From: an uncultured Gammaproteobacteria bacterium
GTDB taxonomy: Bacteria; Patescibacteriota; Patescibacteriia; UBA9934
Direction of reading: 5' to 3'
DNA: 64,000 nt
Assembly (NCBI GenBank): GCA_964452565.1
Contig: CAYVLY010000002.1
Location: 119,166 to 183,165, forward strand
Both the position numbers and the translations under genes were made by a program. Within the stretch, counting starts at the first letter, position 1, and every line of letters starts with the position of its first letter. The notes beneath the pieces were generated by a model. That model saw only the letters and a program-made list of their open reading frames with translations, was not told where the DNA came from and made no database searches. Positions 4,003 to 20,781 of the stretch are shown in pieces.

Positions 4003-4862
4003 GCAAGGAAGAAACGCGAACTCTGCGTCTGACAAGCAGAGACCTCGATACACTCTCTGACCTGGGCGACTACAGATTCATGAGCATTGCCCAGCTCGCA
4101 GCTCTGCACTTCCCGACAGAGGGGGCAGCGCAGGCCAGGCTACGAAGGCTTGTGGAAGGCGGCCTGGCGCTCAAGGTCTATGTTCCAGTAAGGCCCTACG
4201 ACCGTAGCGCTCACACCATCTACGCCCTTTCTGCCAAGGGTGCTCGGGAACTCGCAGACGCCCGCGGGTGCAAGCGACCTCGGCACTTGTCCGAGCGAGA
4301 GCGCAGAAGCGGGCTCTTCCTGGACCACACGCTCCGGCGAAACGACCTGCGAGTCTGCCTGGAGTTGCTCCAGAGCATGGAGCCTGGATTCCGCCTGCTC
4401 ATCTGGCGCCAGGCCAAGGACGAGGTGGGCACGAGCGCCAGGGTGCGTGTGGGCAGAGGGAGAGAGCAGAGAGTGCCCATCGTGCCAGACGGGTACTTCG
4501 CCGTACAGATAGGAGCGGGGTTCGAGAACTTCGTGGTGGAGATCGACATGGGCACAGTGCGCCTCGACCGGATGGCCTTGCGCTACAAAGCGTACTGGAA
4601 ATGGTGGAAGGCAGGCGGGCACAAGGCTTTGTATGGCCCTCTGCCTATCCGAGTCCTGACACTCACCACCACACCCCGTAGACTCGAAGCCCTGCGAAAG
4701 GCAGCCATGGAGGCGCCCATGGGAGGGAGCACCGGCTCAAACCTCTTCTGGTTCGCCTGCCTCGAGTGCGCTGACATCCAATCGCCAGAAAAGCTGCTTA
4801 CCCCGGTCTGGACAACAGCGCAGAAGCGCCCAGGGCCACTACGGAAGCTAATTAAATCATAA
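3999..4862 (+). CDS. Replication-relaxation family protein (Replic_Relax-like)
   Basis: N-terminal wHTH (MSIAQLAALHF) plus FLDHTLRRNDLRVCLE and VEIDMGT motifs typical of this family on Gram-positive conjugative elements. ATGA overlap with the upstream gene. Confidence 0.65.
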   Translation: MSKEETRTLRLTSRDLDTLSDLGDYRFMSIAQLAALHFPTEGAAQARLRRLVEGGLALKVYVPVRPYDRSAHTIYALSAKGARELADARGCKRPRHLSERERRSGLFLDHTLRRNDLRVCLELLQSMEPGFRLLIWRQAKDEVGTSARVRVGRGREQRVPIVPDGYFAVQIGAGFENFVVEIDMGTVRLDRMALRYKAYWKWWKAGGHKALYGPLPIRVLTLTTTPRRLEALRKAAMEAPMGGSTGSNLFWFACLECADIQSPEKLLTPVWTTAQKRPGPLRKLIKS

Positions 4863-4888
4863 ACAAACTGCATATGCGTAGAAAATGG

Positions 4889-5032
4889 ATGACCACCAAT
4901 CCGAAGCGGATCGTGGCAAACAAAAAAACAAAGAAGTGCGGTGTCTGTAGGACCAGAATCAAGGGACCGGCCAGGAAGATCGGGGGAAAGTACCGCTGCT
5001 ACTGGTGCAACAAGCGCATCTGCGGACATTGA
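4889..5032 (+). CDS. Small zinc-ribbon protein (47 aa), too short for the ORF track
   Basis: Manual translation MTTNPKRIVANKKTKKCGVCRTRIKGPARKIGGKYRCYWCNKRICGH. Two CxxC pairs. Paralogous to the next ORF. Confidence 0.3.
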   Translation: MTTNPKRIVANKKTKKCGVCRTRIKGPARKIGGKYRCYWCNKRICGH

Positions 5033-5041
5033 GCACAGATA

Positions 5042-5248
5042 TTGACCAACCTGAACACATTATGTATGCGAAAAAGGAAACGCCCATCCAAGAGGCAAAG
5101 AGATCGCTTGCGCCGACGTGCGATAGTCATGGCATCAAAGCGCTGTAAGTTCTGCCGAAGACGGCCTGATGTCCACTTTGCATTCGACAAAGAGAGAAGG
5201 CCGATCTGCTCAAAGTGCCTGGGATACGGTCATTTACCAGATCCATAA
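5042..5248 (+). CDS. Small basic zinc-ribbon protein (68 aa)
   Basis: CKFC...CSKC...YGH, with an Arg/Lys-rich N-terminus. Same Cys pattern as 4889..5032. Confidence 0.35.
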   Translation: MTNLNTLCMRKRKRPSKRQRDRLRRRAIVMASKRCKFCRRRPDVHFAFDKERRPICSKCLGYGHLPDP

Positions 5249-5507
5249 TTGTTATTGCTGCCTCCCGCGGCTCCTGGGAATGTCCCGAGGGGGCCGCTCC
5301 GAGCGTGACCCTCGTGCCGGACCGTTCGGACGCTCGCGTACTTGGCGCACGAGGCCAGGTGCGCGGCGGGGAGGACAAGGATGCCGCCTGTGATTCGTGA
5401 TTCGACCTATGGGCCTTTCAGAGGAGAGGGGCTCAAAGGCCGGAATCCCTGCGCATGAGGCCAGGAAACCGGGCCCAATAGCCAGGAAACCTGAAAAAGG
5501 AGGACAT

Positions 5508-6824
5508 ATGCTGGCGCTCACCATCGACGGCATCACCGAGCACTTGAACGAGACGGAGCTTGAAGGTGCCATGCAGCGGTACTGGATGGCCCGGAGTCAG
5601 GGTGACCAGACTGCGCAGCTCATCAAGGTGGAGTTCGGCCCGTCGGACCCAGAACCAGAGGACGACCCACCCCCCAGCGCTCCTGGCGCGATCATGTCGG
5701 TCGCCCAGGAGCGCATTGCCATCCAGGAGAAGTGGATCGAAGAGGCCGGCTTTTCCATGCCCCAGCCGGTCTTCGCTCCTGGGGCGCGTCTGACCCTGGA
5801 GGGCGAACGCAACTTCAGGCTGGAGCGGCAGCGCGTGGAGGCCATGCCGCTCTTCCCGGAAGCAGCGGCGCGCGTGCGTGAGCAGATCGCCGACGAGTGC
5901 CGAGAGAACGTGTCCACCAGGCTGCGCTCGCTTTCCATGAACAACCAAGGCGAACTCCTGATGGGTGGTGACACTCTCGGGATGGAGGTGAGCGCCTTCG
6001 CCCAGCTCGCTATGCTTTCGGGCTTTGGCTCTGGCACGCGCTACTTGACCAAGCTCTGCCCCAGAGACCTGCGCGCCGAGAACTTCAACCGCCAGGCCAG
6101 GCTGCGGCCAGACCGCGAGCTCGTGCTGCGCACTCGCCTCGGACCTGATGGAGGTCGCCGTGCCTTTGCGACCGTCACGCCCACCTACTCGGCCGTGGAT
6201 ACCGACCAGGTGCTGCTCGCTGTCGAGCACGCCCTGACCGATGCCCATACCGAGATGCGCTACGACGGCGCTGGCGTGCGAGCGACGGCCATGTGGATGC
6301 CCGACCAGATCGTGGACCAGTCTGCAGGCGACGTGTTCAAGGTTGGGGTGCGCATCGAGACCGACGACACCGGTCGGGGCCGCATCCGCATCTCTGGCGT
6401 CGCTTTCCGCCCCGCCTGCCTGAACTTGCTGATCATCAGCGAGGGTAAGGTCGAGACTGTCTCCCTGGTCCACCGTGGAGACCCCGAGCGCATCCTCTCC
6501 ATCGTGCGCGATGGCGTGGACGAGGCGCGAGAGAAGGTCGGCACCTTCCTGGAAGCCTGGGGGCACGCCAGGACCGTCAAGGTGGATGTCCAGGAACTCC
6601 TGCGAGAGTGGGTGGAGGAGAAGAGCATCTTGCCCCGCACGCGAATGGAGAACGACGTGATCGTGGAGGAGCTGCTCTGTGCGTGGCGCAAGGAGCCAGG
6701 AGACTCTCTGGCCGATGCCATCAACGCCCTTTCCCGGTCTGCACACGAGAGCGATCTCTGGGACATGGACTTCCGAGAGGAGATGGAGCGTCAGGCTGCG
6801 CGCCTGGTGCTGGTGCCGAGATGA
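5508..6824 (+). CDS. Conserved hypothetical mobile-element protein (about 438 aa). Family not assigned.
   Basis: Strong RBS AAAAAGGAGGA 6 nt upstream of ATG 5508. Long ORF with ordinary amino-acid composition. A DUF932-type family is possible but unverified. Confidence 0.55.
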   Translation: MLALTIDGITEHLNETELEGAMQRYWMARSQGDQTAQLIKVEFGPSDPEPEDDPPPSAPGAIMSVAQERIAIQEKWIEEAGFSMPQPVFAPGARLTLEGERNFRLERQRVEAMPLFPEAAARVREQIADECRENVSTRLRSLSMNNQGELLMGGDTLGMEVSAFAQLAMLSGFGSGTRYLTKLCPRDLRAENFNRQARLRPDRELVLRTRLGPDGGRRAFATVTPTYSAVDTDQVLLAVEHALTDAHTEMRYDGAGVRATAMWMPDQIVDQSAGDVFKVGVRIETDDTGRGRIRISGVAFRPACLNLLIISEGKVETVSLVHRGDPERILSIVRDGVDEAREKVGTFLEAWGHARTVKVDVQELLREWVEEKSILPRTRMENDVIVEELLCAWRKEPGDSLADAINALSRSAHESDLWDMDFREEMERQAARLVLVPR

Positions 6825-8527: not shown

Positions 8528-9166
8528 CTGATAATCAGGTACAGCTATGGTGTCTATTCAATCAGGATCAGAAACCCCCCGATGACGCCAGCTGCTCCCC
8601 TCAACATGACAAGAAGACCGCAGCCAGAACTGGCCGCGGTAGAGGTGGAGCACCAAGGCAGGCAGCAGCAAGCTCCCCACCGAACCGGCCGCGTTGCAGC
8701 ACGGCCGATCCTCGGACAGGAGCTCCCACTTCCTATCGGATCGCGACATACCGGCCGCGACCATCACCTCGGACCTTACATGGAGGCCACGAGATGGAGT
8801 GCCCAAGAAAGCCCAGACAAAGTACCATAGCGCGTGTTTTCGTGCAAGGGGAGTACTTCCTGTCGCCGTCCAAGGACGATGGTATTGACCTCGTTCGAAT
8901 GACCGACGGTGGCTCCCCAAAGAGTGTTGCGACGTTCTACGGCTCCCTTCAAGACGCCTTGGCGGGGGCTTTCGTTTTGACTAACGCTGGGTACATCTCC
9001 GTGTTTCGCCCACCGGAGGCCACTCCAGAGGCTGCCGGTAGGCATCCGGCTGCTCCCCGTGGGTAGTTGAGCGCCATGCCTCATCCTCACGCCGACTTGA
9101 GCCAGAGAGCTCGACCTCCCCCAGAGCAGCGAGAAGCACGAGGCGATCTCGCACATCGCCTCGTGC

Positions 9167-9988
9167 TTGAGTCACCTTTCAACCCTCGTTCCTTCGATGG
9201 TCTGTGGCGACCGGGTAAGCATACCATTCGTCGGCCTGGCCTTCCACAGATCGCGCTCCGCAAGAACCGCATCCGCGAACCGGCCTGTCGGCATGAACAT
9301 CAATATCTCCATTCGCCTTCACCCACCGCATAGCCTCGGGTTCCTCTTGGACCAGTTCAGGGAGGAACTTGAGCAGGTCATGGCATGGGTGGGGGGCCTG
9401 GACTCTCCGAGGCTCCTGGTCCAGTCCCAAGACGACTCCACGAGATCTGTCGTTCCGACAGAGTACATATCTACACGCCACCGATTACCTCTCTCCTTAG
9501 GGCGCGCCCTCCTGGTCGCCGAGGACGCATGGGGCCTCCTGAAGAGCCACCATCCAGAGCTGCCGGATGCGGTGATCCGCATCGGCACGCAGGACCAGTA
9601 CATGAAGAAGGGGCACTGGAGTCCCTCTCGCTGGCGGATTCAAGGCCAGGATCTGGGTGAGGTGATGATCGCGGGAGAGCACTTCCATAGGGGAGGAGAG
9701 GCAATTACTGCGACCCTGATCCACGAATCTGCCCATTCTCTGGGTACATATCGGGGCATCAAGAACTGCATCGGCGGAACCTACCACACTCAGGCTTTCG
9801 TTGAATTGGCCCACGAGGTCGGCCTGCATGTCTACGAACCATCGAAGAAGTACGGATTCGGTCACACCTCTCTGACAGCCTCGACCAGGAGCATCTTCAG
9901 CAGCCACATCAGGGAGTTGGACAGGCTCTTGACTGGCTTCCGGCTCTCGAAGGGACGCCATACCATGCGTGGAAGGGAGGTGAGATGA
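9167..9988 (+). CDS. Putative zinc metallopeptidase (HExxH)
   Basis: Motif ATLIHESAHSL (HExxH). Start may be the internal Met at 9293. Stop overlaps the next start (ATGA at 9985). Confidence 0.45.
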   Translation: MSHLSTLVPSMVCGDRVSIPFVGLAFHRSRSARTASANRPVGMNINISIRLHPPHSLGFLLDQFREELEQVMAWVGGLDSPRLLVQSQDDSTRSVVPTEYISTRHRLPLSLGRALLVAEDAWGLLKSHHPELPDAVIRIGTQDQYMKKGHWSPSRWRIQGQDLGEVMIAGEHFHRGGEAITATLIHESAHSLGTYRGIKNCIGGTYHTQAFVELAHEVGLHVYEPSKKYGFGHTSLTASTRSIFSSHIRELDRLLTGFRLSKGRHTMRGREVR

Positions 9989-11769
9989 GCGCTCTTCTGG
10001 CCTTCGTACGGGGTCTTTTTGCCATTCCAGCCCCGCCAGCGTTCCGCTCGCAACTCGATATGGCTTCCTCGGGGGAGCAGATGGATGAAGAGCTTCCGCC
10101 GCTCGCTCGTGAGCAGCCACATCGTGCCGACCTACTCCTCGATGAAGACACCTTCTGTGCCGAGGACACGGCGCAACACCGAAGCACACAGCTTCAGGAG
10201 CAGCAAGCAGCCCAGGAGACGGAGCACGACCTTGATGACCATTACCTCGCCTTTCCAGCCCCGCTCTTGGATGTGGCCTGGTTGATCGGGTGTGCAGTCT
10301 TCTCTGCGGGTATCGCCGTCATCGACACGTGGACTTTCCTGAACGTTGGCGCCCTCCGGGTCGGCGTTGATCCAGCTACCGTCTTCTCCGAGCCGAGAAG
10401 CACCCAGGGCATGGTGTTCGCTTGGGCTTTCGGTCTGGTCCTATCTGGTCTCCTGCCAGCCCACGTCTTCCTCGATAGCGCGTACCCCTCGCAGGGGCCG
10501 CAGAGATGGCTTCTGGCCACCGCGTCTGGACCAGTTCTGCTCGGCACGTGCTACCTGCTCGCCAAGGTTCGTGAGGAAGCGAGCGGCAGCGTCAGCCTTC
10601 TCGAGGCCAACGCCCAGAACGCGGGACCGGATTTCGAGATGTTGCTCCTGCCCATCCTGCTTTCAGTGACTCTCTCCATTCTTCTTGCTGCTGGAATCCG
10701 GCAATGCAGGGTGCTGGCAGGCAGAATCCGCGGGGACATCTCCAAGACGTTCAACCAACGATGGGTCATCAGGCGCAGGCGCTCAAGGGTGCGTCAGTCG
10801 GAACGCGCGATTCGCTCAATTCGCCGCCGTCGCCATCAGATTGCCCAGCACTTCGACGCCGCCCATGTCTTAGGCCAGGCCCTTGCTGGAGACAATCCCG
10901 ATCTCACTCAACCGGAACGAGAGCGCCGTGCCGAAGTCCGTGCGCAGGCCACCCGGACTGCTTTGGGCCTTGAGGTAGGTCAGCGTGCTCGCCGATTCCT
11001 GTTCGGTGGCCTCATGCTCGGCACCGCAGTGCTCCTCCTCTTCTTGATGGCAGGCTGTGAGCCGATGCCGGCGCGATCTGCAGGCGTGGTCGTAGTCTAC
11101 GACGCTTCTTCCAGTGCGGGTCTCTGCAATGAGCAGGGGTGCAGGACAGAGGACCTGGTGGAGCTCTACAAGGGGTTCTCCGAAGCCACTCGCCTTCGTC
11201 AAGGTTCTTGGTTCGAGGTGGTTTTGGTCGGACGAGACGCCCATGTGGCCAGCCTGTACCGATCCCCTGCGTCTGACTTCTCCACAGGGGGCAACCTCCT
11301 CGAAGCCAAGCGGCTTCATGTCCAGGAGCAGAGCAGCCGGATCAGCGAGCTCGATATCGACAGCGGGCAGGCAAGCAGCGCAGTTTCCTATGCGATCTCA
11401 AGCGCGGGAAGGAGACTATCCGAGTCGGAGACCACCCACTCGTATCTCGTCGTGCTCTCTGACCTACGTGACATTCGGCGGGGCCGCTGGAACCTGGAGC
11501 GTCGCGTTCCCGAACCGCAGGAGTACATCGACCTCCTGCAGGCCGACGGCTCCTTCCCCGACCTCAAGGGTGCGGAGGTTCGGGTCTGCGGGGCCCATGA
11601 TCGCCCAGAGCCAGGAATGCACGACTGGAATCCGGCCATGCACAAGGCGCTCACCTCATCCTGGAACGCGGTCTTCAAGGCCGCTGGCGCCTCCTCCTGG
11701 AGGCTCTCGGAGTTCTGCGATTTCAAGAGCTTCTTCAACGATTTCAATGCGTCTACTCCCCACAGATGA
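9985..11769 (+). CDS. Polytopic membrane protein with a C-terminal von Willebrand factor A (vWA)-like domain
   Basis: Several hydrophobic helices in the N-terminal 250 aa. The C-terminal soluble part carries a MIDAS-like DxSxS motif (VVVYDASSSAG). Confidence 0.6.
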   Translation: MSALLAFVRGLFAIPAPPAFRSQLDMASSGEQMDEELPPLAREQPHRADLLLDEDTFCAEDTAQHRSTQLQEQQAAQETEHDLDDHYLAFPAPLLDVAWLIGCAVFSAGIAVIDTWTFLNVGALRVGVDPATVFSEPRSTQGMVFAWAFGLVLSGLLPAHVFLDSAYPSQGPQRWLLATASGPVLLGTCYLLAKVREEASGSVSLLEANAQNAGPDFEMLLLPILLSVTLSILLAAGIRQCRVLAGRIRGDISKTFNQRWVIRRRRSRVRQSERAIRSIRRRRHQIAQHFDAAHVLGQALAGDNPDLTQPERERRAEVRAQATRTALGLEVGQRARRFLFGGLMLGTAVLLLFLMAGCEPMPARSAGVVVVYDASSSAGLCNEQGCRTEDLVELYKGFSEATRLRQGSWFEVVLVGRDAHVASLYRSPASDFSTGGNLLEAKRLHVQEQSSRISELDIDSGQASSAVSYAISSAGRRLSESETTHSYLVVLSDLRDIRRGRWNLERRVPEPQEYIDLLQADGSFPDLKGAEVRVCGAHDRPEPGMHDWNPAMHKALTSSWNAVFKAAGASSWRLSEFCDFKSFFNDFNASTPHR

Positions 11770-11797
11770 ACACCAACAAACGGAGAAGTACGAGATG

Positions 11798-12739
11798 AAT
11801 ACGATCCCCCTCTTTCAGGCCGGTGCTCATCGAGGCGGCCGCGAATACCGAAGAGCCCTGGTGCGTTCTGGTCAAGCTGATCGCATCGCCGACATCGTCA
11901 TCGCCGATCCCAAGCCCAACAGAGCCACCCGTGAGGCCGAAGAGTACTCCCGGATGGGGTTGAGGACCCTGGCGCTCCAGGAATCCTGCGAGTCTGCGGT
12001 CCGTCAGGTGGACGACGAGCGCCCCATCGTGGCGCTCGTTGACGAGGTCGCCCCCATGGCGCACCTCATCGAGCATCGAACGCGACAGCCCGTGCTCGTC
12101 CAAGGAGTCGGCCGCGGCCCCTCGCTCAACGGCAGCACATCGCCGGCCTTTGGTATGACCTTGGCCAGTTTCCCCGAGCGGGCACAAGAACGCGGGCCTG
12201 CGACGGAGCTGCTGCAGACGTTGGCCAGGCTTTCGCCGCCGGCGAGTTCGCAGGCGATCTCGCGAGATCCGCTCAACGCCATGCGCCTCCACCGAGTGCG
12301 CCGCAACACGAGCGAGGTCACCGCCCATCGCGTTCTGGAACTCGACCGCACACGGGAGCAGGACGATCTTCAGGCCCTGCTGTGGGGCGAGGGCACCTAT
12401 CCCCTGGTTCTGGCTCGCGGCCAAGGCCGTGACGCTCTGGAGGCCCAGAGCCAGGCGCTCGACCTCGTTCCCAGGCGCCCGCACGTGGCCGTGGCGATCT
12501 TCTCCCGCAACCCGGATCGAGTGGACATCTTCGTACTCGATCCCACCACGCGCAGAGATGGCCACTTCGTGCGGATGCACGTTCCGTTCCACGCGCCCGC
12601 CCCCGCTCCCCAACAGATGGGACGCCGGATCATCGACGTGAGCCCCTCCCCGGTGAGCTTGCCCGCCAGAAGGCCCAGGCCGCCCAGGGCCGGCACACCG
12701 GTGCCGAGGTCGGCCATCCGCGCGGCGTTCACCGACTGA
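11798..12739 (+). CDS. Hypothetical protein (313 aa)
   Basis: RBS GGAGA upstream of ATG 11798. Same strand and operon position as its neighbours. The competing minus-strand ORF 11753..12874 lacks operon context. Confidence 0.45.
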   Translation, partial: NTIPLFQAGAHRGGREYRRALVRSGQADRIADIVIADPKPNRATREAEEYSRMGLRTLALQESCESAVRQVDDERPIVALVDEVAPMAHLIEHRTRQPVLVQGVGRGPSLNGSTSPAFGMTLASFPERAQERGPATELLQTLARLSPPASSQAISRDPLNAMRLHRVRRNTSEVTAHRVLELDRTREQDDLQALLWGEGTYPLVLARGQGRDALEAQSQALDLVPRRPHVAVAIFSRNPDRVDIFVLDPTTRRDGHFVRMHVPFHAPAPAPQQMGRRIIDVSPSPVSLPARRPRPPRAGTPVPRSAIRAAFTD

Positions 12740-12749
12740 AGGAGAGTCC

Positions 12750-13232
12750 ATGAAGCGCATCCTGCCTCTGGCCATCATCGCCATCATCATCCTGACCGCG
12801 TTGGCTGGCCCGGTCGTTTCCGGCTTCCTGTTCATGGGAGCCATCCTGTGCTTCGCGGGCGCCGGGTGCATCATGATTGCCGGAGCAGAAGCACTGGCCG
12901 GGCGTCTGGCCGCCTACGCGGGAGGCTGTCTTTTCGCGGGGATTATCCTGCGGGCCGTCGCTGGGGCGAGCGCTCAGTTGAGTCCGAGCATCATGGTCGG
13001 GCTCCTGGCGCTCCTGGGCTTGGTCGTGCTTGCAGGAGCCTTGGTCCTCCTGTCCCGGATCATCGTGCAACGGCCGCCGGCGGGTCCTCGACCTCGGCCC
13101 ATGGCCAGACCACGGGCTCGCCTGGTCGAGCACATCGAATCCGATCCTACCGCGTGGGTGGGCACTCGACAGTCTGCTCGCACCGACGACGAGCTGGGCA
13201 TCCTCGGTGAGGGTGATGTTCGCCAGAGATGA
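12750..13232 (+). CDS. Small membrane protein with four TM helices
   Basis: RBS AAGGAG. Glycine/alanine-rich TM helices. Possible membrane partner of the downstream ATPase. Confidence 0.55.
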   Translation: MKRILPLAIIAIIILTALAGPVVSGFLFMGAILCFAGAGCIMIAGAEALAGRLAAYAGGCLFAGIILRAVAGASAQLSPSIMVGLLALLGLVVLAGALVLLSRIIVQRPPAGPRPRPMARPRARLVEHIESDPTAWVGTRQSARTDDELGILGEGDVRQR

Positions 13233-14700
13233 GCGACTACCTGTGGGGCAAGGGCAGCAGGACGTGCTCCCGCTGGCCGCCTCCACATTGGTCGAGGCCC
13301 ATTCGGCTCAAGTGGGTGGGACGGGATCTGGTAAGACCGGTTTCCTCATCGGCAGGGTCATGACCCTCCTCTCGTGCCTTCCCGGACGAGTCCACGTCTG
13401 CGTCCTGGATGGCAAAGGAGAGGCAGCCAGAGATCTACTCGGCACGTTCGCCCCAGCAATTGCCCACGAGAGCTGGGGGCTCAAGGCAGACCAGATTGGT
13501 GTCTGCTCGCCCTGGAAAGATGGCTGCCACGTCGGCCTGAACCTGCTCGCCCGACAGCCGGGGATGCCGGTCGATGTGCAAGCAAGCCAGGCCAGCAGAG
13601 CGATTCAGCGACTCGTAGGTGACAACTTCGGGCAGCGAATGGCCCCGATGATCATGATGGTTCTACGAGCCGTAATCGAGCTCAAGGGCTCGCTGCACGA
13701 CGTACTTCGTATCCTGGAAGACGACGAAATCGGCATCGCAGTAGGCCGACGAGTTCGAGACCCCGATGTCCGGCGCTATCTCATCGAAGTGCTTCCACGC
13801 GAGCCAGCGGCGACCAAGGCAGCTCTGCGGGCGCGTCTTGTGGGCCTCTTGGGTCTGCGGGCGATGCGCGCCATGCTCTGCTCCAGAGAGAGCATCACCG
13901 GAGTGGACTTCATCAATTCCCGGTTGAGCATCATCGACCTCGGAGGGGCGCCACCAGGCCATGCAGATCTGTCCATGTGGCTTGGTACTTGGATTTTCAA
14001 CATCATCACCTCTGCGATCTTGAACCGGCCAGACGAGCCCGGCAGACCACAGCTCTGTCTGTTCGTGGATGAGTTCCATCATCTGATCCACTCGCACGCT
14101 GACCTTGAGCAGCTCCTGACGATGGCCCGTTGGAAGGACACCAGCGTGCATCTGACGACTCAATCTCTGGCCCAGGTGCAGAACCAGCGGCTCATTCAAA
14201 CGGCCCTTGCTAATATTGGAATGTTCGTAGCGTTTCGCCCGCGGCCTGAAGACCTGCACCATTTTGGGCACCTCATTTCAGGCAGGGGTCACGTAGTGGA
14301 CCCCGAGCTTCCAGATCGGTTGCTGGAGCCTTCCAGGCAGACCCAGCTCTGGACCACCCGCCTTCGAGCACTGCCGCCTCGCTACGCTTGGCTTGTGGAT
14401 CTCTCACAAGGAGGGGAGAGCCACATCATCCGCAGCCTGGAGCTGCCATACCAGCGAGCCCGCCAGATCTCCGAACGCCTGTCAGCAGAACAGCGCCACG
14501 CCTTCTGGCGCGGCAAGTTCGGCAAGACCGTCGAGGAGCTCGAATCTGACGCTGCAACAGCTCTCAAGGGCATTCAGAAGCCAGGAGCAGGCCAACAGGG
14601 CGACATGCTCGATGGCCTCGGCAGCGGTGGATCCGGTCGGAGGGCCGGGCGTGGGAAGGGCAAGAAGAGCCCGACTTTCATGATGGAGCTACCAGAATGA
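13213..14700 (+). CDS. P-loop NTPase of the FtsK/TraD/VirD4-like coupling-protein type
   Basis: Walker A VGGTGSGKTGF and Walker B LCLFVDEFHH. Sits among Replic_Relax genes. Confidence 0.65.
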   Translation: MMFARDERLPVGQGQQDVLPLAASTLVEAHSAQVGGTGSGKTGFLIGRVMTLLSCLPGRVHVCVLDGKGEAARDLLGTFAPAIAHESWGLKADQIGVCSPWKDGCHVGLNLLARQPGMPVDVQASQASRAIQRLVGDNFGQRMAPMIMMVLRAVIELKGSLHDVLRILEDDEIGIAVGRRVRDPDVRRYLIEVLPREPAATKAALRARLVGLLGLRAMRAMLCSRESITGVDFINSRLSIIDLGGAPPGHADLSMWLGTWIFNIITSAILNRPDEPGRPQLCLFVDEFHHLIHSHADLEQLLTMARWKDTSVHLTTQSLAQVQNQRLIQTALANIGMFVAFRPRPEDLHHFGHLISGRGHVVDPELPDRLLEPSRQTQLWTTRLRALPPRYAWLVDLSQGGESHIIRSLELPYQRARQISERLSAEQRHAFWRGKFGKTVEELESDAATALKGIQKPGAGQQGDMLDGLGSGGSGRRAGRGKGKKSPTFMMELPE

Positions 14701-15044
14701 CCGCCGCACTCCTCAACGCTCTGGGGCAGGTCCAAGGGTCCTTGCTCATGCGCCTTGGACTGGCGCTGCTTGTGCTGCCTCTGCTGCCTGTGGCGGTAGT
14801 TGTCGATGGGCTGCGATCGCTCATCCGCGCGCAGGCGGAATCTCGGGTGCTCTCTGCTGGAACAGCTCTCTGCCCTGCTGGGCACCGGCTGTCGCTGCAG
14901 GGCGCATATGAGTGCGAGCAATGCCGGCTTCCCTTTGAGGGGCATGGCTTTGGAGAGTGCCCACACTGTCGGCACGTGGCCCACAGCCTCCGATGTCCAT
15001 GCGGCCGAGTGGTCGTCAATCCTCTGTGGAGCCCAGAGCCGTGA
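14697..15044 (+). CDS. Small protein with an N-terminal TM helix and a C-terminal Cys-rich zinc finger
   Basis: ATGA start/stop overlap with the ATPase gene. CEQC...CPHC...CPCG cysteine cluster. Confidence 0.45.
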   Translation: MTAALLNALGQVQGSLLMRLGLALLVLPLLPVAVVVDGLRSLIRAQAESRVLSAGTALCPAGHRLSLQGAYECEQCRLPFEGHGFGECPHCRHVAHSLRCPCGRVVVNPLWSPEP

Positions 15045-15100
15045 GCAAGCTGAAGTGCCCAGCTCGGACTCGGCCCCGCCCTCCTGGCGGAACCAGGGTG

Positions 15101-16006
15101 ATGCCCAGGGACAAGCTCATTCTGTTGCTCGTGGCCAGATGCGCCCCGGTGACCACCACCCAGGTCCGAACCTACCTGGAGTGCAGCACAGATGTTGCCC
15201 AGCGCCGCTGCCGGGTGCTTCGTGATCATGGGCTGCTCCAAGTGACGCTCGATCCCCGAGGGCTCCATCGGCCCAACCTGCTGACTCTCGGTCTGCCAGC
15301 CATGCCGGTGCTCGACCAGACCTTCGGCTTGAGCCCCGAGCAGTGCCGCCGCCCCAAGGCCATGCCGAGGAACCTGGATCATCACCTTGGAGTCGTGGAC
15401 CTCTACATCCAGTTGAAGGCCGCCACCACAAGATCGAAACGCATCGACCTCGCCGATTCGATGCTGGACTGGGAGCTGCGTCAAGGCCCTGGGGCCCGCC
15501 AGAGGCGGGTACAGGTGCCCGATCTGGTAGCTGTTCTTCAGAGCGACAGTGGGCGCATGGGGCTGGCCATCGAGGTGGACATGGCTACGCAGTCACCCGA
15601 CAGCGTGGTCAGGAACAAGGCCCTGCCATACGCCCAGGCCAGGCTGTCTGGCTCGACCCTCAAGGGCTGCCGCGACTGGGCAGTCCTGATGGTGAGTGCC
15701 AGCGTGCGCCGGCGCAACCGCCTGATGATCCGCCTGGGCCGGGAAGCGCTGCCGCTGGGATTGTTCTACTTCGCCGTCTCGGAGAACATCTCTGCCAGGA
15801 GCTTCCTCGGACGAACTACATGGCGGGCTCGCCACCTGGGCTCCGACGGAGTCGTGCGCTGGCCAGAGACCGACCCCTTTGCACCTATCAGGACGACCCG
15901 TCAGGTCCGTGCTGACGGGTTTCGTGCGCCGTCCAAGCCTTTGCAGGCCGCCAATGGCGCGCCCGCAAACTCCGATCTTGGTCCTCCCGGAGGACCACGG
16001 ACATGA
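15101..16006 (+). CDS. Replication-relaxation family protein (second paralog)
   Basis: LDHHLGVVDLYIQL and IEVDMAT motifs parallel the 3999..4862 product. N-terminal wHTH. Confidence 0.6.
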   Translation: MPRDKLILLLVARCAPVTTTQVRTYLECSTDVAQRRCRVLRDHGLLQVTLDPRGLHRPNLLTLGLPAMPVLDQTFGLSPEQCRRPKAMPRNLDHHLGVVDLYIQLKAATTRSKRIDLADSMLDWELRQGPGARQRRVQVPDLVAVLQSDSGRMGLAIEVDMATQSPDSVVRNKALPYAQARLSGSTLKGCRDWAVLMVSASVRRRNRLMIRLGREALPLGLFYFAVSENISARSFLGRTTWRARHLGSDGVVRWPETDPFAPIRTTRQVRADGFRAPSKPLQAANGAPANSDLGPPGGPRT

Positions 16007-16867: not shown

Positions 16868-16879
16868 CCTCAACACTCT

Positions 16880-17110: not shown

Positions 17111-17998
17111 TCAACCGGGCTGCCTGCTGCTTCGCACTTGATCGCCGCTGTACCACCAGCCTGCTTCGGGCCGCACCCGGCCGGTGTGGGGCCGTCCCAT
17201 TCCGGTTGAACCGCGCCAGATTCTGTCAGCCCAGGCAGCCACCCGCTGCTCCATGGGCTCTCCCTCCAGCTTTCCTGGCCCTGGCTCGTTGGCCAGGGTT
17301 CGCGCAGGCTGTTTCCCCTCACCGCGCCTGGAGCTCTCGCTCTGGGTGGCACGAGGCAACAGCTCCGTGACTGCCTACGGCGCTGCCAGGTTGCGCCTGC
17401 CCAGGCCTGCGGGCTCGCTGGGTTCGCCTTCTTGGTCGTGGCTGTGGGACCACCATGGGTCTTCTCCTCCTATCCAGGCTTCCCGCCTGGCAGGTACTGG
17501 GGGCTCTGTCTCCGTTGCGCTCTGCTCATCAGGGGCGCTTGGGGCTGCAGGAGAGGTGGGAGAGCTCTGGACGGCGAGGCAGCCAGGCCGTCATGGTCTT
17601 TCGTGCGTGAAGCCCCGTGGGTTGCTCTGCACCGGTCGGGTCGCGCGTCCTGTTCTCCACACCGTGGGAGGGATCGACAGGTGAGCAGTTCCCGCTACCT
17701 GCGCCGCATGTGGCGGGCGTCCCTTGGCCCGGCCTCCTTGCTGGCCTTGGATGAGTGCGTGGAAGCGCTTCCTGCTCCAGGTCCACAAGCAAAGACCTGG
17801 TTGGTGGAGACTGTGAGCCCCATCGGAGAGGTGGCGGGCGTCAAGGTCTGGCGCTGGGGTGAGGTGCTGGAGGCCATCGAGTCGAAGCGCAGGGGCGTTG
17901 GCGACAAGGAGCCTGCACACTGCGAGCCTGCGTATGCAGACCGCCCTCCGCGCGGGCATCATGTTGAAGAAGAATTGAGCGGTACTGGCACCGACTGG

Positions 17999-18406
17999 AT
18001 GACTGTGCGCCAAGCCGCAGAGCACTTCCAAGTCTCCGAACGACTGCTCCGCAAGCTGCTCTCCCAAGGGCGGCTTGACGAAGCCGTCGCTCGGGTAGGC
18101 CGAGCAGTGCGGCTCCATCGGGGCCGTCTTGTGACGGCACTCACTGGACAGGAGGATGCCCATGGCCTGGCTCCAAAAGAGCAAGAGGCTCAACCCGGAC
18201 ACGGGGAAGAAGGAAATCTACTACCGAATCTGTTGGAGAGTGAACGGCAAGAAGCGTACCCGCGGCATCGGGTTCTGCGGGGTGGTGGAGGCCAAGGAGC
18301 TTCTCAAAATCTTCGAGGGCAAGCAGGCCGTCGGCGAGGAGGTGGCTCCGCCGCCGAGTTCCGAGCCTACCTCCGCGGAGCCAGCACTGGTTCCGAAGCT
18401 GGCTGA
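17999..18406 (+). CDS. xis: Excisionase/MerR-like HTH protein (Xis). 3' extent uncertain.
   Basis: MTVRQAAEHFQVSERLLRKLLSQGRLDEAVARVGRAVRLHRGRL is a typical excisionase-family HTH directly upstream of int. The ORF continues about 250 nt into int in another frame. Confidence 0.4.
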   Translation: MTVRQAAEHFQVSERLLRKLLSQGRLDEAVARVGRAVRLHRGRLVTALTGQEDAHGLAPKEQEAQPGHGEEGNLLPNLLESERQEAYPRHRVLRGGGGQGASQNLRGQAGRRRGGGSAAEFRAYLRGASTGSEAG

Positions 18407-19367
18407 CTACCTGGATGACGTGTTCCTGCCTGTTGTGCAGCGCGACAAGGCGCCCAAGACCTACGCCGGAGCCTGCCGGGCAGCCAATGCGCTCAAGCCC
18501 ATCCTTGGCCAGTTGCAGCTCGACCAGATCAACTTCGCCGCCGCCGATGCCTATGTGACCGAGCGGAAGAAGCTTGGCCGGAGGTCGAGGACCATCATCC
18601 TGGAGCTGCGCTACCTGCGCCAAGCCCTGCAGCACGCCCACGCCTGCGAAGTCATCCGCCAGGTGCCGGAGCTGCCCAGGATTGCCGACCGTGACCGTAA
18701 GCCCCACAAGTTCCTCACCGAAGAGGAGTCTGAGCGCCTGTTGGATGCCCTACGCCCCCTGGACGAGCAGCCCCACCGGGTCACCCGTGGGAGGCCACCC
18801 ATCACCAGGGACCAGCTCACCTACCTGGTGGTGCTGATGGCTCTCAACGCCGGTCTACGCAAGAGCGAGATCCTGACCCGCGGCTGGGAGGATATCCACT
18901 GGCAGCAGGGGCCTCTGGGCACCATCATCATCAGCCACAAGCCCGAGGTGGGTTTCGTGGTGAAGAAGGGGCGCGAACGGGCCATCCCGCTCACACCGAA
19001 TCTGCGCCACGCCCTGGAAGACGCCCACGAGGCTGCCGGCAGGCCGTCATCGGGCTGGATCTTCCCCTCGCCGAGGATTCCTGGCCAGCCGCGAAAGAAC
19101 TTCGCCCAAGCCCTGGCTCGGGCCTGCAGGCGAGCAGGGCTGCCGCGCATCCATCCCCACGGCCTGCGCCACACCTGGGCCACCAGGCTTGCCATGCAGG
19201 GGGTAGACCGTCGGACGCTCATGGAGCTGGGCGGCTGGAAGGAGGGCCGGATGCTTGATGAGATCTACGCCCACACCACCGACGCTCACAAGGCCGAGGT
19301 CATGGCGCGCATGGGCATCGGCCGCCATGAGAAGAGCCCCGAGGGTGAGCCGGATGATGAGGAGTAG
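18156..19367 (+). CDS. int: Phage-type tyrosine integrase
   Basis: N-terminal arm-binding-type segment (AWLQKSKRLNPDTGKKEIYYRICWRVNGKKRTRG). C-terminal catalytic HGLRHTWATRL...LGGWKEGRMLDEIYAH (R..HxxR..Y). Confidence 0.9.
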   Translation: MPMAWLQKSKRLNPDTGKKEIYYRICWRVNGKKRTRGIGFCGVVEAKELLKIFEGKQAVGEEVAPPPSSEPTSAEPALVPKLADYLDDVFLPVVQRDKAPKTYAGACRAANALKPILGQLQLDQINFAAADAYVTERKKLGRRSRTIILELRYLRQALQHAHACEVIRQVPELPRIADRDRKPHKFLTEEESERLLDALRPLDEQPHRVTRGRPPITRDQLTYLVVLMALNAGLRKSEILTRGWEDIHWQQGPLGTIIISHKPEVGFVVKKGRERAIPLTPNLRHALEDAHEAAGRPSSGWIFPSPRIPGQPRKNFAQALARACRRAGLPRIHPHGLRHTWATRLAMQGVDRRTLMELGGWKEGRMLDEIYAHTTDAHKAEVMARMGIGRHEKSPEGEPDDEE

Positions 19368-19735
19368 GTGCCACCCAGCTGCCACCCACGGCCAGCCTTC
19401 AAGGGCTCTCTGGGAGCAGATTTCTCTGGGTGCCACCCAGAACTGCCACCCAGCAGCCTCAATCGCTCCTTCAACGAAAAGACCCACTCTGCGGTTTGCA
19501 AAGTGGGTCGTTCTTTTTCGTCGAGTCGGGGTGGGCGGATTCGAACCGCCGACTTCCTGCTCCCAAATGATCGAATCGGGGAGGTATATCCTGTGTTTTC
19601 AAGGGGTTACAGTGCACCAGGATGCACGGTTTTGCACGGAAATGCACCTGGTTGCCACCCAGTGCCACCCAGCAGATGGGAGGATGATGGTGCGATATGG
19701 AGTCGGTGGTTCTGGGTGGCAGGGTGCCACCCAGT
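19368..19735. promoter_or_regulatory. attP-like region: eight copies of TGCCACCCAG (one inverted) in two clusters flanking a tRNA 3'-end-like core
   Basis: Copies start near 19369, 19380, 19431, 19444, 19653, 19663 and 19726, with the inverted copy at 19712. Layout is that of arm-type integrase-binding sites on both sides of a core. Confidence 0.5.
19525..19553 (-). other. tRNA 3'-end fragment (T-arm GGCGG-TTCGAAT-CCGCC plus acceptor 3' strand), candidate attachment core. Not a complete tRNA.
   Basis: Reverse complement reads GGCGGTTCGAATCCGCCCACCCCGAC. No matching 5' half. Differs from the tRNA-Val 3' end at 36061. Confidence 0.5.
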
Positions 19736-20770: not shown

Positions 20771-20781
20771 CAGAACATCCC

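What the first reader, a model, noticed from the sequence alone, without database searches (positions are those of the whole stretch)
9167..15044. Operon pairing an HExxH peptidase, a membrane vWA protein, an unknown gene, a small 4-TM protein, a coupling-type ATPase and a Zn-finger protein
Six co-directional, translationally coupled genes (ATGA overlaps at 9985 and 14697) sit between Replic_Relax paralogs. The P-loop ATPase has TraD/VirD4/FtsK-like Walker motifs, pointing to a minimal DNA-transfer (conjugation) module. The vWA MIDAS domain on a polytopic membrane protein and the HExxH peptidase are not standard conjugation parts. vWA-ATPase-protease combinations also occur in defence and signalling systems. 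The window does not show VirB4-like, relaxase or pilin genes.
Basis: partly seen in the sequence, partly recalled or inferred. Interest (0 to 1): 0.6.

Follow-up and report, generated by a model that had tools for sequence, protein, structure and literature searches.

The report
Mobilizable island: split coupling ATPase plus relaxase
The operon is the DNA-transfer module of a small integrative mobile element: a coupling-type ATPase with a separately encoded membrane anchor, a MOB_C-type relaxase, an excisionase and an integrase. It is a new variant of a known kind of element, found here in a candidate-phyla-radiation bacterium.

Summary
The six co-directional, tightly coupled genes are real. 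The operon runs on by a GTGA overlap into the downstream Replic_Relax gene.

The ATPase model (pLDDT 90) matches VirD4-type coupling proteins (Cagβ, TrwB), and about equally well VirB4 C-terminal domain, DptH and HerA. It has no membrane segment. The 4-TM gene just upstream is its likely detached anchor.

In eight related metagenomic elements the conserved core is 4-TM protein, ATPase, membrane-anchored Zn-ribbon protein and MOB_C relaxase, with a tyrosine integrase nearby in seven. The polytopic membrane protein with a vWA-like outer domain is found in about five of eight. The 314-aa gene is in one of eight. The HExxH gene is in none and is a SprT-like accessory with relatives on Streptomyces plasmids.

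No element has a recognisable VirB4-type (~800 aa) ATPase; this ATPase's fold also matches the VirB4 C-terminal domain. The order coupling protein, relaxase, excisionase (HTH_17), integrase, tRNA-Pro att fragment matches known integrative mobilizable elements such as CloDF13 mobB/mobC and streptococcal IME class 8.

Verdict: a new variant of a known kind. A self-transmissible minimal apparatus is not excluded.

The parts
9134..9168 (.). Perfect 14-nt inverted repeat (AAGCACGAGGCGAT, 7-nt loop, ATCGCCTCGTGCTT) just upstream of the operon. Candidate operator or oriT-like site; function unknown.
   Evidence: No equivalent conserved repeat was found in related loci.
9197..9988 (+). SprT-like HExxH zinc metalloprotease, 263 aa. 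Lineage-specific accessory gene, not part of the conserved core.
   Evidence: phrog_6361 at 6e-16. tblastn hits to Streptomyces and other actinobacterial plasmids and to actinophages, E down to 1e-18, annotated SprT-like or DNA-dependent metalloprotease. A plasmid homolog hits Pfam SprT-like at 5e-5, below the gathering score. Absent from 8/8 related elements.
9985..11769 (+). Polytopic membrane protein, 594 aa. About 5-6 TM segments, an Arg-rich cytoplasmic linker, a last TM ending in a lipobox-like AGC, then a Cys-containing extracytoplasmic alpha/beta domain with DxSxS and (S/T)DG motifs (vWA-like, unconfirmed).
   Evidence: TM scan. Homologs in L012 (2e-27), L013, L014 and L002, and as a separate lipoprotein-like gene in L006 (1.5e-34 to the family HMM). 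No Pfam or PDB hit. One relative hits VWA_2 at E 0.077. The AF2 single-sequence model is unusable, pLDDT 42.
11795..12739 (+). 314-aa soluble protein of unknown function, Arg/Pro/Ala-rich. Accessory.
   Evidence: Only homolog is the L012 296-aa gene in the same position (1e-34). No Pfam, NCBIfam, PHROG, PADLOC or PDB hit.
12750..13232 (+). Small 4-TM protein, 160 aa, with a basic cytoplasmic tail and a C-terminal acidic D-[DE]-L-G-like motif. Proposed detached membrane anchor of the coupling ATPase.
   Evidence: TM scan and motif. Family HMM finds it directly upstream of the ATPase in L002, L004, L012, L013, L014, L005 and L009.
13243..14700 (+). Soluble FtsK/HerA-superfamily ATPase of the VirD4 (T4CP)/VirB4 clade, 485 aa. 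Nucleotide-binding domain plus an inserted all-helical domain (about residues 110-225). Conserved basic C-terminal tail ending L-x-L-P.
14697..15044 (+). 115-aa protein with an N-terminal TM helix and a Cys/His-rich (double Zn-ribbon-like) domain, always between the ATPase and the relaxase.
   Evidence: Homologs in 6 of 8 related elements, E 1e-16 to 7e-30, with conserved C-x2-H, C-x2-C, C-x2-C and C-x-C positions.
15041..16006 (+). Replic_Relax (PF13814) protein, 321 aa: MOB_C-type PD-(D/E)XK relaxase with an N-terminal wHTH. Translationally coupled (GTGA) to the Zn-ribbon gene.
   Evidence: Pfam 2.8e-12, 47.6 bits, above the gathering score of 25.3. Directly downstream of the ATPase/ZnF in 8/8 related elements. 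Conserved H, PD and ExD motifs shared with paralog 1. PF13814 equals MobC per PMC5357655.
16880..17110 (+). Small conserved gene, 76 aa, downstream of the relaxase. The 455-aa ORF 16003-17370 that covers it in another frame is probably not a gene.
   Evidence: tblastn with the L006 83-aa gene, 5e-12. ORF 16003-17370 has GC3 below GC2 and an R/W/C-rich composition, and its positional equivalents are unrelated to each other.
17996..18130 (+). HTH_17 (excisionase-type) domain just upstream of the integrase.
   Evidence: Pfam HTH_17 3.1e-6, 27.8 bits, at the gathering score. Similar to the L002 HTH_17 gene.
18162..19367 (+). Tyrosine integrase, 401 aa.
   Evidence: Pfam Phage_integrase 7e-30. Orthologs at the same position in L009, L013 and L006, E <= 1e-144. 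In L006 it abuts an intact tRNA-Pro.
19369..19734 (.). att region. The 3' half of a tRNA-Pro(UGG), from anticodon loop to acceptor end, lies at 19526-19574 on the minus strand. It is flanked on both sides by seven copies of TGCCACCCAG (candidate integrase arm sites).
   Evidence: Sequence reading. Motif found 8 times against 0.13 expected. Comparison with L006.
3397..6824 (+). Second conserved backbone module: 201-aa protein, Replic_Relax paralog 1 (3999-4862) and a DUF932-like protein (5508-6824).
   Evidence: Pfam Replic_Relax 8e-24; DUF932 1e-3, sub-threshold. Homologs in L013, L014 and L012.

Best explanation
The operon is the mobilization (DNA-processing and coupling) module of an integrative mobilizable element (IME) of about 20 kb.

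Proposed cycle:
1. The HTH_17 excisionase and the tyrosine integrase excise the element at a tRNA-Pro-derived att site.
2. The MOB_C-type (Replic_Relax, PD-(D/E)XK) relaxase at 15041-16006 nicks an unidentified oriT.
3. The soluble VirD4-like ATPase (13243-14700) acts as the coupling protein. It is tethered to the membrane by the separately encoded 4-TM protein (12750-13232) and probably by the TM-anchored Zn-ribbon protein (14697-15044). It hands the relaxase-DNA complex to a mating channel.
4. The channel is most likely supplied in trans by a co-resident type IV secretion system, as for CloDF13 MobB/MobC.

The polytopic membrane protein with an extracytoplasmic vWA-like domain is a frequent but not universal partner. 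Its role is inferred only: docking to the helper channel, surface contact, or exclusion. The SprT-like protease and the 314-aa protein are lineage-specific add-ons.

Shown here: gene order and coupling, homology and fold assignments, conserved synteny, the att fragment.
Inferred: nicking, coupling, the anchor role of the 4-TM protein, and dependence on a helper.
For: - Replic_Relax hits above Pfam's gathering score for both paralogs. PF13814 is the CONJscan MobC relaxase superfamily (PMC5357655) with a PD-(D/E)XK fold (PMC3424549). Conserved H, PD and ExD positions are present in all 12 aligned paralogs.
- ATPase: AF2 model pLDDT 89.9. Top Foldseek PDB hits are the T4CPs Cagβ and TrwB, aligned over about 410-520 columns, nearly the full model length including the helical insert. 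Relatives hit TrwB_AAD_bind (2e-12), TraG-D_C and T4SS-DNA_transf. The family HMM aligns to CloDF13 MobB starting just after the position where its TMD ends (MobB TMD = residues 1-184, PMC7431656).
- None of the top 47 relatives, and only 2 of 150, has a TM segment before Walker A, while a 145-210 aa multi-TM gene sits immediately upstream in 7-8 of 8 elements.
- Synteny 4TM-ATPase-(ZnF)-relaxase in 8/8 related elements, followed by a tyrosine integrase in 7/8. Two of these integrases abut intact tRNA genes.
- HTH_17 and integrase lie downstream in the window.
- No VirB4-size ATPase was seen in any of the 9 elements (gene tables; L009 by ORF list only).
- The same compact order, CP-relaxase-Xis-Int, and the pairing MobC relaxase + VirD4 CP are described for IMEs (PMC5357655) and for the MOBC1 plasmid CloDF13.
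Against: - The window protein's own Pfam T4CP hits are below gathering scores.
- No oriT was identified, and no inverted repeat is conserved across elements.
- Three conserved membrane proteins are more than a simple relaxase + CP mobilization module needs.
- No helper T4SS was shown in the host. Only a lone T4SS_pilin-domain gene was seen.
- tblastn found no plasmid or phage relative of the ATPase, and no plasmid relative of either relaxase paralog, so the link to characterised systems is remote.
- The element (58-65% GC) sits in a 42-50% GC host region, and an independent assembly breaks at the att 30-mer. Host assignment therefore carries some risk.
Confidence: 0.6

Rival explanations
1. 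Self-transmissible minimal conjugation apparatus. The polytopic membrane protein (VirB6/CedA-like role), the small 4-TM protein (VirB3-like position directly upstream of the ATPase), the ATPase (VirB4-C-terminal-domain-like) and the TM Zn-ribbon protein together form a reduced DNA-export channel. The element would then be a tiny ICE that needs no helper.
For: - A small membrane protein directly upstream of the ATPase mirrors the VirB3-VirB4 arrangement (own knowledge).
- Three membrane proteins are conserved next to the ATPase in most elements.
- The elements occur in very different lineages (Deltaproteobacteria and Gammaproteobacteria MAGs, a CPR genome), where a compatible helper would have to be present each time.
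- Precedents for minimal machineries exist: Streptomyces TraB, archaeal Ced (own knowledge).
Against: - No sequence or profile similarity of the membrane proteins to VirB6/TrbL, VirB3 or VirB8.
- The ATPase lacks the N-terminal domain of VirB4. It is 485 aa, against about 800 aa for VirB4.
- Sequence-level hits favour T4CP families.
- The large membrane protein is missing or replaced in L005 and L009.
- No cell-wall hydrolase or pilin is in the element.
- All characterised ssDNA conjugation systems have both a VirB4 and a coupling protein (established knowledge).
Confidence: 0.2
2. Intracellular DNA handling rather than intercellular transfer. One version is a replication/segregation module, with a Replic_Relax initiator plus a translocase. 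Another is a virus-like genome-packaging or 'DNA translocation' module like those of large Bacillus phages.
For: - Replic_Relax was named for plasmid replication as well as relaxation.
- There are two paralogs per element, and one may be the replication initiator.
- The best viral structural matches are VirD4-like proteins of Bacillus phages G and JL (1.5e-18 and 3.5e-14), which belong to the phage 'DNA translocation operon' class paired with MobC-like relaxases (PMC3357382).
- Weak PHROG terminase hit, 3.6e-4.
Against: - Capsid-packaging ATPases (A32-like, corticovirus, STIV B204) match far worse than T4CP or VirB4.
- No capsid, portal or tail genes are in any element.
- A limited pattern scan of IMG/VR (two peptide patterns from three relatives) found nothing.
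- Membrane anchoring of the ATPase partners and the integrase/excisionase context fit transfer better.
Confidence: 0.08
3. An anti-phage defence or signalling system that combines a vWA protein, an ATPase and a protease, carried as cargo by the island.
For: - PADLOC mad8 hit for the ATPase, 3.2e-9.
- Structural similarity to DptH and to HerA-type defence ATPases.
- Defence genes are common cargo of related elements: NACHT and Abi_C in L002, R-M next door in the window.
Against: - The protease is absent from 8/8 related elements and the vWA-like protein from 3/8, so the proposed trio is not a unit.
- The ATPase is invariably followed by a relaxase and lies in the conserved backbone next to Xis/Int, not in the variable cargo region.
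- No other PADLOC hit for any of the genes.
Confidence: 0.03

Closest known systems
CloDF13 mobilization region (MOBC1): MobB coupling protein + MobC relaxase
   Same: - Pairs a MOB_C-family (Replic_Relax/PD-(D/E)XK) relaxase with an element-encoded VirD4-like coupling ATPase, with no VirB4 and no channel genes. CloDF13 is mobilized by a helper T4SS (PMC7431656).
- The ATPase family HMM aligns to MobB from just after its TMD.
- The MobB TMD (184 aa) is about the size of the window's separate 4-TM protein (160 aa).
   Different: - Here the TMD and the ATPase are separate genes.
- A TM Zn-ribbon protein lies between the CP and the relaxase.
- The element is integrative (tyrosine integrase, tRNA att), not a ColE1-type plasmid.
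- No BLAST-level similarity to plasmid proteins.
- The family HMM did not detect CloDF13 MobC in the held record.
Streptococcal IME_Class_8 and the generic compact IME architecture (Coluzzi et al. 2017, PMC5357655)
   Same: Gene order coupling protein, relaxase, excisionase, integrase. The specific association is a PF13814/MobC relaxase with a VirD4-type CP.
   Different: - Class 8 uses a serine integrase and a canonical single-polypeptide VirD4.
- This family uses a tyrosine integrase, although a large serine recombinase sits at the far left end of the same contig.
- It has a split CP, extra conserved membrane proteins and a second Replic_Relax module.
- It occurs in uncultivated Gram-negative and CPR lineages.
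'DNA translocation operon' of Bacillus phages 0305phi8-36 / SPO1 / G (PMC3357382)
   Same: A MobC-like relaxase next to a VirD4-like ATPase plus membrane-anchor proteins. Phage G Gp156 is the best viral structural match to the ATPase.
   Different: The phage proteins are much larger (about 800-900 aa). They sit in a lytic phage genome, and their function is unknown (dispensable in the laboratory).
VirB3-VirB4 / archaeal Ced (CedA, CedA1/2, CedB) minimal DNA-transfer machineries
   Different: No detectable sequence relation of the membrane proteins. The ATPase lacks the VirB4 N-terminal domain. A relaxase is present, which Ced lacks. The resemblance rests on my own knowledge and was not tested beyond the fold search.

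Membership tests
Type IV coupling protein (VirD4/TrwB/TraD) | RecA-like nucleotide-binding domain of the FtsK/HerA superfamily with Walker A and Walker B | tested here: met
   GGTGSGKT and VDEF motifs. G25/G28/G30/K31/D276 are nearly invariant and E277 invariant in 44 relatives. PDB profile hits to FtsK, HerA, DotL and TrwB.
Type IV coupling protein (VirD4/TrwB/TraD) | All-alpha domain inserted in the NBD; overall fold like TrwB or Cagβ | tested here: inconclusive
Type IV coupling protein (VirD4/TrwB/TraD) | N-terminal transmembrane domain in the same polypeptide | tested here: not met
   No TM segment before Walker A in the window protein or in the top 47 relatives, and in only 2 of 150. A separate 4-TM gene lies immediately upstream.
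Type IV coupling protein (VirD4/TrwB/TraD) | Curated profile match (Pfam T4SS-DNA_transf / TrwB_AAD_bind / TraG-D_C; CONJscan t4cp) | tested here: not met
   Window protein: 16-17 bits, below the gathering scores of 20.5-22. Some relatives score better, with a best of 2e-12. CONJscan was not available.
MOB_C relaxase (Replic_Relax, PF13814) | Profile match above the curated threshold | tested here: met
   15041-16006: 47.6 bits (gathering score 25.3), E 2.8e-12. 3999-4862: 85.2 bits, E 8e-24.
MOB_C relaxase (Replic_Relax, PF13814) | N-terminal wHTH plus a PD-(D/E)XK core with conserved catalytic acidic residues | tested here: met
   The alignment of 12 paralogs keeps the L-R-x-L wHTH region and invariant H, PD and E-x-D positions. 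The assignment of these positions as catalytic is by analogy with the PD-(D/E)XK superfamily.
MOB_C relaxase (Replic_Relax, PF13814) | Site- and strand-specific nicking at an oriT | not testable with these tools
   No oriT was identified. The candidates are the inverted repeats at 9134-9168 and 2711-2756. Nothing is conserved across loci.
Integrative mobilizable element (IME) | Own integrase/excisionase and att site | tested here: met
   Phage_integrase 7e-30. HTH_17 3e-6. A tRNA-Pro 3' half with flanking repeats. Orthologous integrases abut intact tRNAs in L006 and L002.
Integrative mobilizable element (IME) | Relaxase (with or without a CP) but no mating-pore genes (VirB4 absent) | tested here: met
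   No VirB4/TraC-size ATPase or T4SS Pfam family in the gene tables of the window element and 7 relatives; L009 was checked only by an ORF list and window-protein homology. Caveat: many genes have no Pfam hit at all.
Integrative conjugative element / T4SS | VirB4-family ATPase (about 800 aa, N-terminal domain plus CTD) and VirB6, VirB3 and VirB8 homologs | tested here: not met
   NCBIfam VirB4 hit only at E 0.009 over 66 residues. No profile hit for the membrane proteins. Only the fold of the ATPase resembles the VirB4 CTD.
von Willebrand factor A (vWA) domain with MIDAS | Profile or structural match to vWA; conserved DxSxS...T...D MIDAS | tested here: inconclusive
   - DxSxS is present in the window, L012 and L004. 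It is reduced to DxSG/DxTG in 4 of 7 relatives.
- The (S/T)D[GL] motif after the predicted beta4 strand is conserved in 6 of 7.
- The predicted secondary-structure order is alpha/beta, but model pLDDT is 42.
- No Pfam or PDB hit for the window protein or the profile. One relative hits VWA_2 at E 0.077.
SprT-like / zincin metalloprotease | HExxH motif and homology to the SprT-like family | tested here: inconclusive
   HESAH is present. There is clear homology (E to 1e-18) to plasmid and phage proteins annotated SprT-like or DNA-dependent metalloprotease. The plasmid homolog reaches Pfam SprT-like at only 23.5 bits against a gathering score of 25.6. The window protein itself has no Pfam hit.
Known anti-phage defence systems (PADLOC) | Matches of several components to one system model | tested here: not met
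   Only the ATPase hits a single model (mad8, 3e-9). The other nine proteins tested have no hit.

The most novel reading that the evidence does not exclude
The conserved set would constitute a previously undescribed, VirB4-less (or VirB4-CTD-only) minimal DNA-export machine. The set is the polytopic membrane protein with an extracytoplasmic vWA-like domain, the 4-TM protein, the TMD-less VirD4/VirB4-fold ATPase with its conserved C-terminal L-x-L-P tail, and the membrane-anchored Zn-ribbon protein. Together with the MOB_C relaxase it would make these 15-22 kb islands self-transmissible across very different envelopes, including a candidate-phyla-radiation (Uhrbacteria-like) cell.
Probability: 0.15. 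Interest if true: 0.8.

Novelty: new variant of a known kind. Interest (0 to 1): 0.42.

Why it matters
Most genomic islands have no known route of transfer. This defines a family of small integrative elements. The ATPase has 51 representative relatives at E <= 1e-30 and 783 at E <= 1e-3. Most of the backbone proteins have no Pfam or NCBIfam match, so standard annotation reveals little beyond two Replic_Relax genes, an integrase and an excisionase-type HTH.

Recognising a MOB_C relaxase next to a coupling ATPase whose membrane anchor is a separate gene gives a concrete, testable transfer mechanism. It also gives search profiles for finding such elements in metagenomes. Current tools that expect a single-polypeptide VirD4 may class them as relaxase-only or non-mobile islands.

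The occurrence in a CPR genome, if the assembly is right, would be a rare lead on how horizontal DNA transfer reaches these episymbiotic bacteria.

Tried and rejected
- Word-index homology searches with the ATPase, with a 44-sequence profile and with the HExxH protein returned essentially only the query. Only the exhaustive HMMER search found the family.
- tblastn of the ATPase against plasmids and phages, and of both relaxase paralogs against plasmids, found nothing.
With a 3-sequence alignment it gave one genome locus, two metagenome loci (one of them the already-fetched L004 contig), and no viral locus. The single-protein genome scan found nothing.
The single-sequence model is unusable at pLDDT 42, so no fold search was run on it.
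- Sequence searches of the three dark proteins and a profile search of the C-terminal domain against PDB gave nothing.
- The afdb50 fold library was unavailable.
- A search for a conserved oriT-like inverted repeat across loci failed.
- The RefSeq CloDF13 record translates MobB's N-terminus poorly, and MobC was not detected with my HMM. Direct relaxase-to-MobC homology therefore rests on Pfam and the literature.
- Considered and rejected: a tandem or chimeric-assembly origin of the whole finding. The operon itself lies inside one independently assembled 22-kb contig.
- Considered and rejected: the 455-aa ORF 16003-17370 as a seventh or eighth operon gene. Its codon-position GC and composition argue against it.

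Full report
OBSERVATION

The six ORFs are present, co-directional and tightly packed.
- 9197-9988 and 9985-11769 overlap by ATGA behind a GGGAGG.
- 11795-12739, 12750-13232 and 13243-14700 follow after gaps of 25, 10 and 10 nt. The first two gaps carry Shine-Dalgarno-like GGAG/AGGAGA.
- 14697-15044 overlaps the ATPase stop by ATGA.

An independent assembly of the same DNA (Logan SRR8146441, a 22,225-bp contig) calls the same genes. All six show a coding-type codon-position GC pattern (GC3 and GC1 well above GC2; GC1 is highest in the Zn-ribbon gene). No convincing terminator interrupts them.

The operon does not end at 15044. The next gene, 15041-16006, overlaps by GTGA and is the downstream Replic_Relax paralog.

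The 455-aa ORF that follows (16003-17370) is probably not a gene.
- Its GC3 is below its GC2 and it is R/W/C-rich.
- Its positional equivalents in three related elements are unrelated to it and to each other.
- A 76-aa gene in another frame (16880-17110) is conserved (5e-12 to L006).

Further downstream lie an HTH_17 excisionase-type domain (17996-18130) and a tyrosine integrase (18162-19367). After them comes the 3' half of a tRNA-Pro(UGG), from the anticodon loop to the acceptor end, at 19526-19574 on the minus strand.

WHAT THE PARTS ARE

Curated libraries are almost silent.
- Pfam, NCBIfam and PADLOC give nothing for five of the six proteins; PHROGs adds only phrog_6361 for the HExxH protein.
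- The ATPase gets only sub-threshold T4CP/FtsK hits.

The exhaustive HMMER search found 783 representative relatives of the ATPase (51 at E <= 1e-30), at most 40% identical. Scanned individually, these relatives hit DUF87/HerA, FtsK_SpoIIIE, TraG-D_C, TrwB_AAD_bind (best 2e-12) and T4SS-DNA_transf.

An AlphaFold2 model built on 44 relatives is confident (pLDDT 89.9, pTM 0.87). It shows a RecA-like core with an inserted helical domain at about residues 110-225.
- Foldseek against PDB ranks the coupling proteins Cagβ (5e-11) and TrwB (about 5e-10) at the top, together with the DptH C-domain. HerA and VirB4 come lower.
- The protein therefore belongs to the VirD4/VirB4/HerA branch of the FtsK-HerA superfamily. 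Sequence evidence leans to VirD4, and fold evidence does not separate VirD4 from VirB4.
- Capsid-packaging ATPases match much worse.
- The best viral match is Bacillus phage G Gp156, 1.5e-18. It is plausibly of the VirD4-like phage class that a 2012 study found paired with MobC-like relaxases (PMC3357382); that study did not include phage G.

THE RELAXASE

However, Pfam Replic_Relax (PF13814) is the MobC/MOB_C relaxase superfamily used by CONJscan (PMC5357655). It is a PD-(D/E)XK nuclease fused to an HTH (PMC3424549). Both paralogs pass Pfam's gathering score: 85.2 bits for 3999-4862 and 47.6 bits for 15041-16006. Aligned with ten relatives, they keep an N-terminal wHTH region and invariant H, PD and ExD positions. 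This is consistent with active nucleases.

CONSERVED NEIGHBOURHOOD

I fetched eight related elements through the ATPase relatives: L002, L004, L005, L006, L009, L012, L013 and L014. I compared all their proteins with the window's.

| Component | Found in related elements |
|---|---|
| Replic_Relax (paralog-2 type) right after the ATPase | 8/8 |
| 113-118 aa protein (N-terminal TM helix, conserved Cys/His pattern) between ATPase and relaxase | 6/8 |
| 145-210 aa multi-TM protein immediately upstream of the ATPase | 7-8/8 |
| Tyrosine integrase a few kb downstream | 7/8 |
| 594-aa membrane protein | 4/8 full length (L012 2e-27, L013, L014, L002); its C-terminal domain is a separate lipoprotein-like gene in L006 (1.5e-34 to the family HMM), and weakly in L004 |
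| 314-aa gene | 1/8 (L012, 1e-34) |
| HExxH gene | 0/8 |

- The multi-TM proteins share a basic tail and an acidic D-D-L-G-like C-terminus.
- Two of the integrases abut intact tRNA genes: tRNA-Pro in L006 and tRNA-Gly in L002.
- A second backbone module is also conserved in L012-L014. It comprises an HTH gene, a 201-aa protein (3397-4002), Replic_Relax paralog 1 and a DUF932-like protein.
- No element carries a VirB4-size ATPase or any recognisable T4SS channel gene.

The real conserved unit is therefore 4-TM protein, ATPase, Zn-ribbon protein, MOB_C relaxase, then Xis and Int. The large membrane protein is a frequent partner.

THE ACCESSORY AND DOUBTFUL PARTS

The HExxH protein has clear relatives on 61 plasmids, mostly Streptomyces, and in actinophages (E to 1e-18). 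Where named, they are annotated SprT-like or DNA-dependent metalloprotease. One such relative reaches Pfam SprT-like just below threshold.

The C-terminal 235 residues of the 594-aa protein follow a TM segment that ends in a lipobox-like AGC. They contain conserved cysteines, which suggests an extracytoplasmic location. The vWA evidence is mixed.
- The DxSxS motif is complete in only 3 of 7 family members.
- An (S/T)D[GL] motif after the predicted fourth strand is conserved in six of the seven.
- The predicted strand/helix order is alpha/beta, but the single-sequence model is unreliable at pLDDT 42.
- No profile search confirms vWA. One relative gives VWA_2 at E 0.077.

I call this domain vWA-like and unproven.

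MECHANISM

The order coupling protein, relaxase, excisionase, integrase is the canonical compact architecture of integrative mobilizable elements. The specific pairing of a PF13814/MobC relaxase with a VirD4-type coupling protein is known from streptococcal IME class 8 and from the MOBC1 plasmid CloDF13. In CloDF13, MobB (coupling protein) and MobC (relaxase) suffice for mobilization by a helper T4SS.

The ATPase family HMM aligns to CloDF13 MobB beginning just after its transmembrane domain. MobB's TMD is residues 1-184. Almost none of the 150 best ATPase relatives has a TM segment before Walker A, while a 4-TM gene of similar size always precedes them.

I therefore propose a split coupling protein, in which the 4-TM protein is the anchor and the 485-aa protein is the motor. 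The Zn-ribbon protein would be an additional membrane-tethered adaptor to the relaxosome.

The proposed steps are as follows. Xis and Int excise the element. The MOB_C relaxase nicks oriT. The anchored ATPase delivers the nucleoprotein to a channel, most likely a helper's. These steps are inferred. No oriT was found. The candidates are perfect inverted repeats at 9134-9168 and 2711-2756, and nothing is conserved across loci.

The family's conserved C-terminal tails are probably docking peptides, but that is speculation. The tails are basic and end L-V-L-P in this subfamily, or F-P-x-L-G in a sister subfamily.

RIVALS

- Defence system. Support is limited to a PADLOC mad8 hit (3e-9) and the DptH/HerA fold resemblance. 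The conserved backbone context contradicts it.
- Packaging or replication roles. These are weakly supported.

CONTEXT AND CAVEATS

The element is 58-65% GC and lies in a window whose right half is 42-50% GC. That half carries housekeeping genes. Its RNase J clusters at 90% identity or more with a Candidatus Uhrbacteria protein.

The Logan assembly breaks exactly at the tRNA T-arm 30-mer. One contig ends at window 19554 and the next starts at 19525. The join therefore rests on the MAG assembly. It is supported by seven copies of TGCCACCCAG on both sides of the core; the motif occurs 8 times in the window against 0.13 expected.

Arm-type repeats on both sides make this look like an intact attP or a tandem-element junction rather than a simple attL or attR. 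The 19.7-36 kb stretch is more island DNA: restriction-modification genes, an HNH gene, a Xer-like integrase and a transposase. The far left end of the Logan contig carries a large serine recombinase and a 20-nt tRNA-Val T-arm match. The island's exact boundaries are unresolved.

VERDICT

This is a new, largely unannotated variant of a known kind of element: an IME with a MOB_C relaxase and its own VirD4-like coupling protein. Its distinguishing features are the split coupling protein, a conserved Zn-ribbon adaptor and a frequent vWA-like membrane partner. Interest is moderate. It would be high if the module proved to be self-sufficient for transfer.

Noticed in passing
window 45050-46618 (-): A 522-aa protein in the low-GC host part carries a Pfam T4SS_pilin domain (PF18895, E 2.7e-12, above the gathering score). 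It is a possible component of a host type IV secretion system that could act as helper.
   Followed up: partly
window 19369-19453 and 19653-19734, around 19526-19574: Eight copies of TGCCACCCAG in the window (0.13 expected). Seven flank the tRNA-Pro 3'-half core on both sides, and one lies at 17342. Arm-type sites on both sides suggest an intact attP or a tandem-element junction rather than a plain attL/attR.
   Followed up: partly
window 881, 28414, 30076, 35915 (23 nt each): A near-identical 23-nt palindrome, GGTGTTTCAGGCCTGAAACACC, recurs four times across the island region and next to tRNA-Val. It may be a terminator or a REP-like element.
   Followed up: no
window 16003-17370, and the equivalent ORFs in L012, L013 and L014: In four elements a 310-455 aa ORF is 'translationally coupled' to the relaxase stop. 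These ORFs are R/W/G/P-rich and mutually unrelated, and the window's has GC3 below GC2. They are probably artefactual long ORFs over a GC-rich region that holds small real genes (16514-16867, 16880-17110) or non-coding DNA, possibly oriT.
   Followed up: partly
ATPase relatives P0001-P0150; 4-TM proteins of L002, L004, L005 and the window: Two ATPase subfamilies are marked by conserved C-terminal tails: a basic stretch plus L-V-L-P (40 of 150), or F-P-x-L-G (59 of 150). The upstream 4-TM proteins end in D-D-L-G-L-F-R-like motifs. These are possible docking peptides.
   Followed up: partly
window 19697-36000: Adjacent island DNA at 52-59% GC. It holds a fused HsdR_N/N6-methylase (21692-23758), a specificity subunit (23698-25479), an HNH protein, a XerC/D-like integrase (29567-30532, -), a metallophosphatase and a Mutator-family transposase (31736-33145, -). 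It ends near tRNA-Val at 36061-36137 (-).
   Followed up: partly
L007 1-1722 (Logan contig, 2.7 kb left of the window start): The same contig begins with a 20-nt exact match to the T-arm of the window's tRNA-Val, in inverted orientation, followed by a terminator-like hairpin and a 510-aa large serine recombinase. The island may be composite, or bounded by a second recombinase.
   Followed up: partly
window 2711-2756: A perfect 19-nt inverted repeat (ACAGAAGACCCTGTTCACT, 8 nt, AGTGAACAGGGTCTTCTGT) between the HTH gene and the 163-aa gene of the paralog-1 module. It is a candidate operator, origin or oriT.
   Followed up: no
L016/L017 (sister ATPase subfamily); also L007 2005-3448, L012 3076-3822, L006 260-1054: A PDDEXK_1 (Cas4/RecB-like) nuclease, in L016/L017 and L007 paired with a 234-236 aa protein, recurs in elements of both ATPase subfamilies. 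This hints at a shared recombination or processing module.
   Followed up: no
window 52979-53399 (+) and 36061-36137 (-): Bacterial class A RNase P RNA (174 bits) and tRNA-Val(GAC). These are ordinary host genes and mark the right half of the window as chromosomal.
   Followed up: yes
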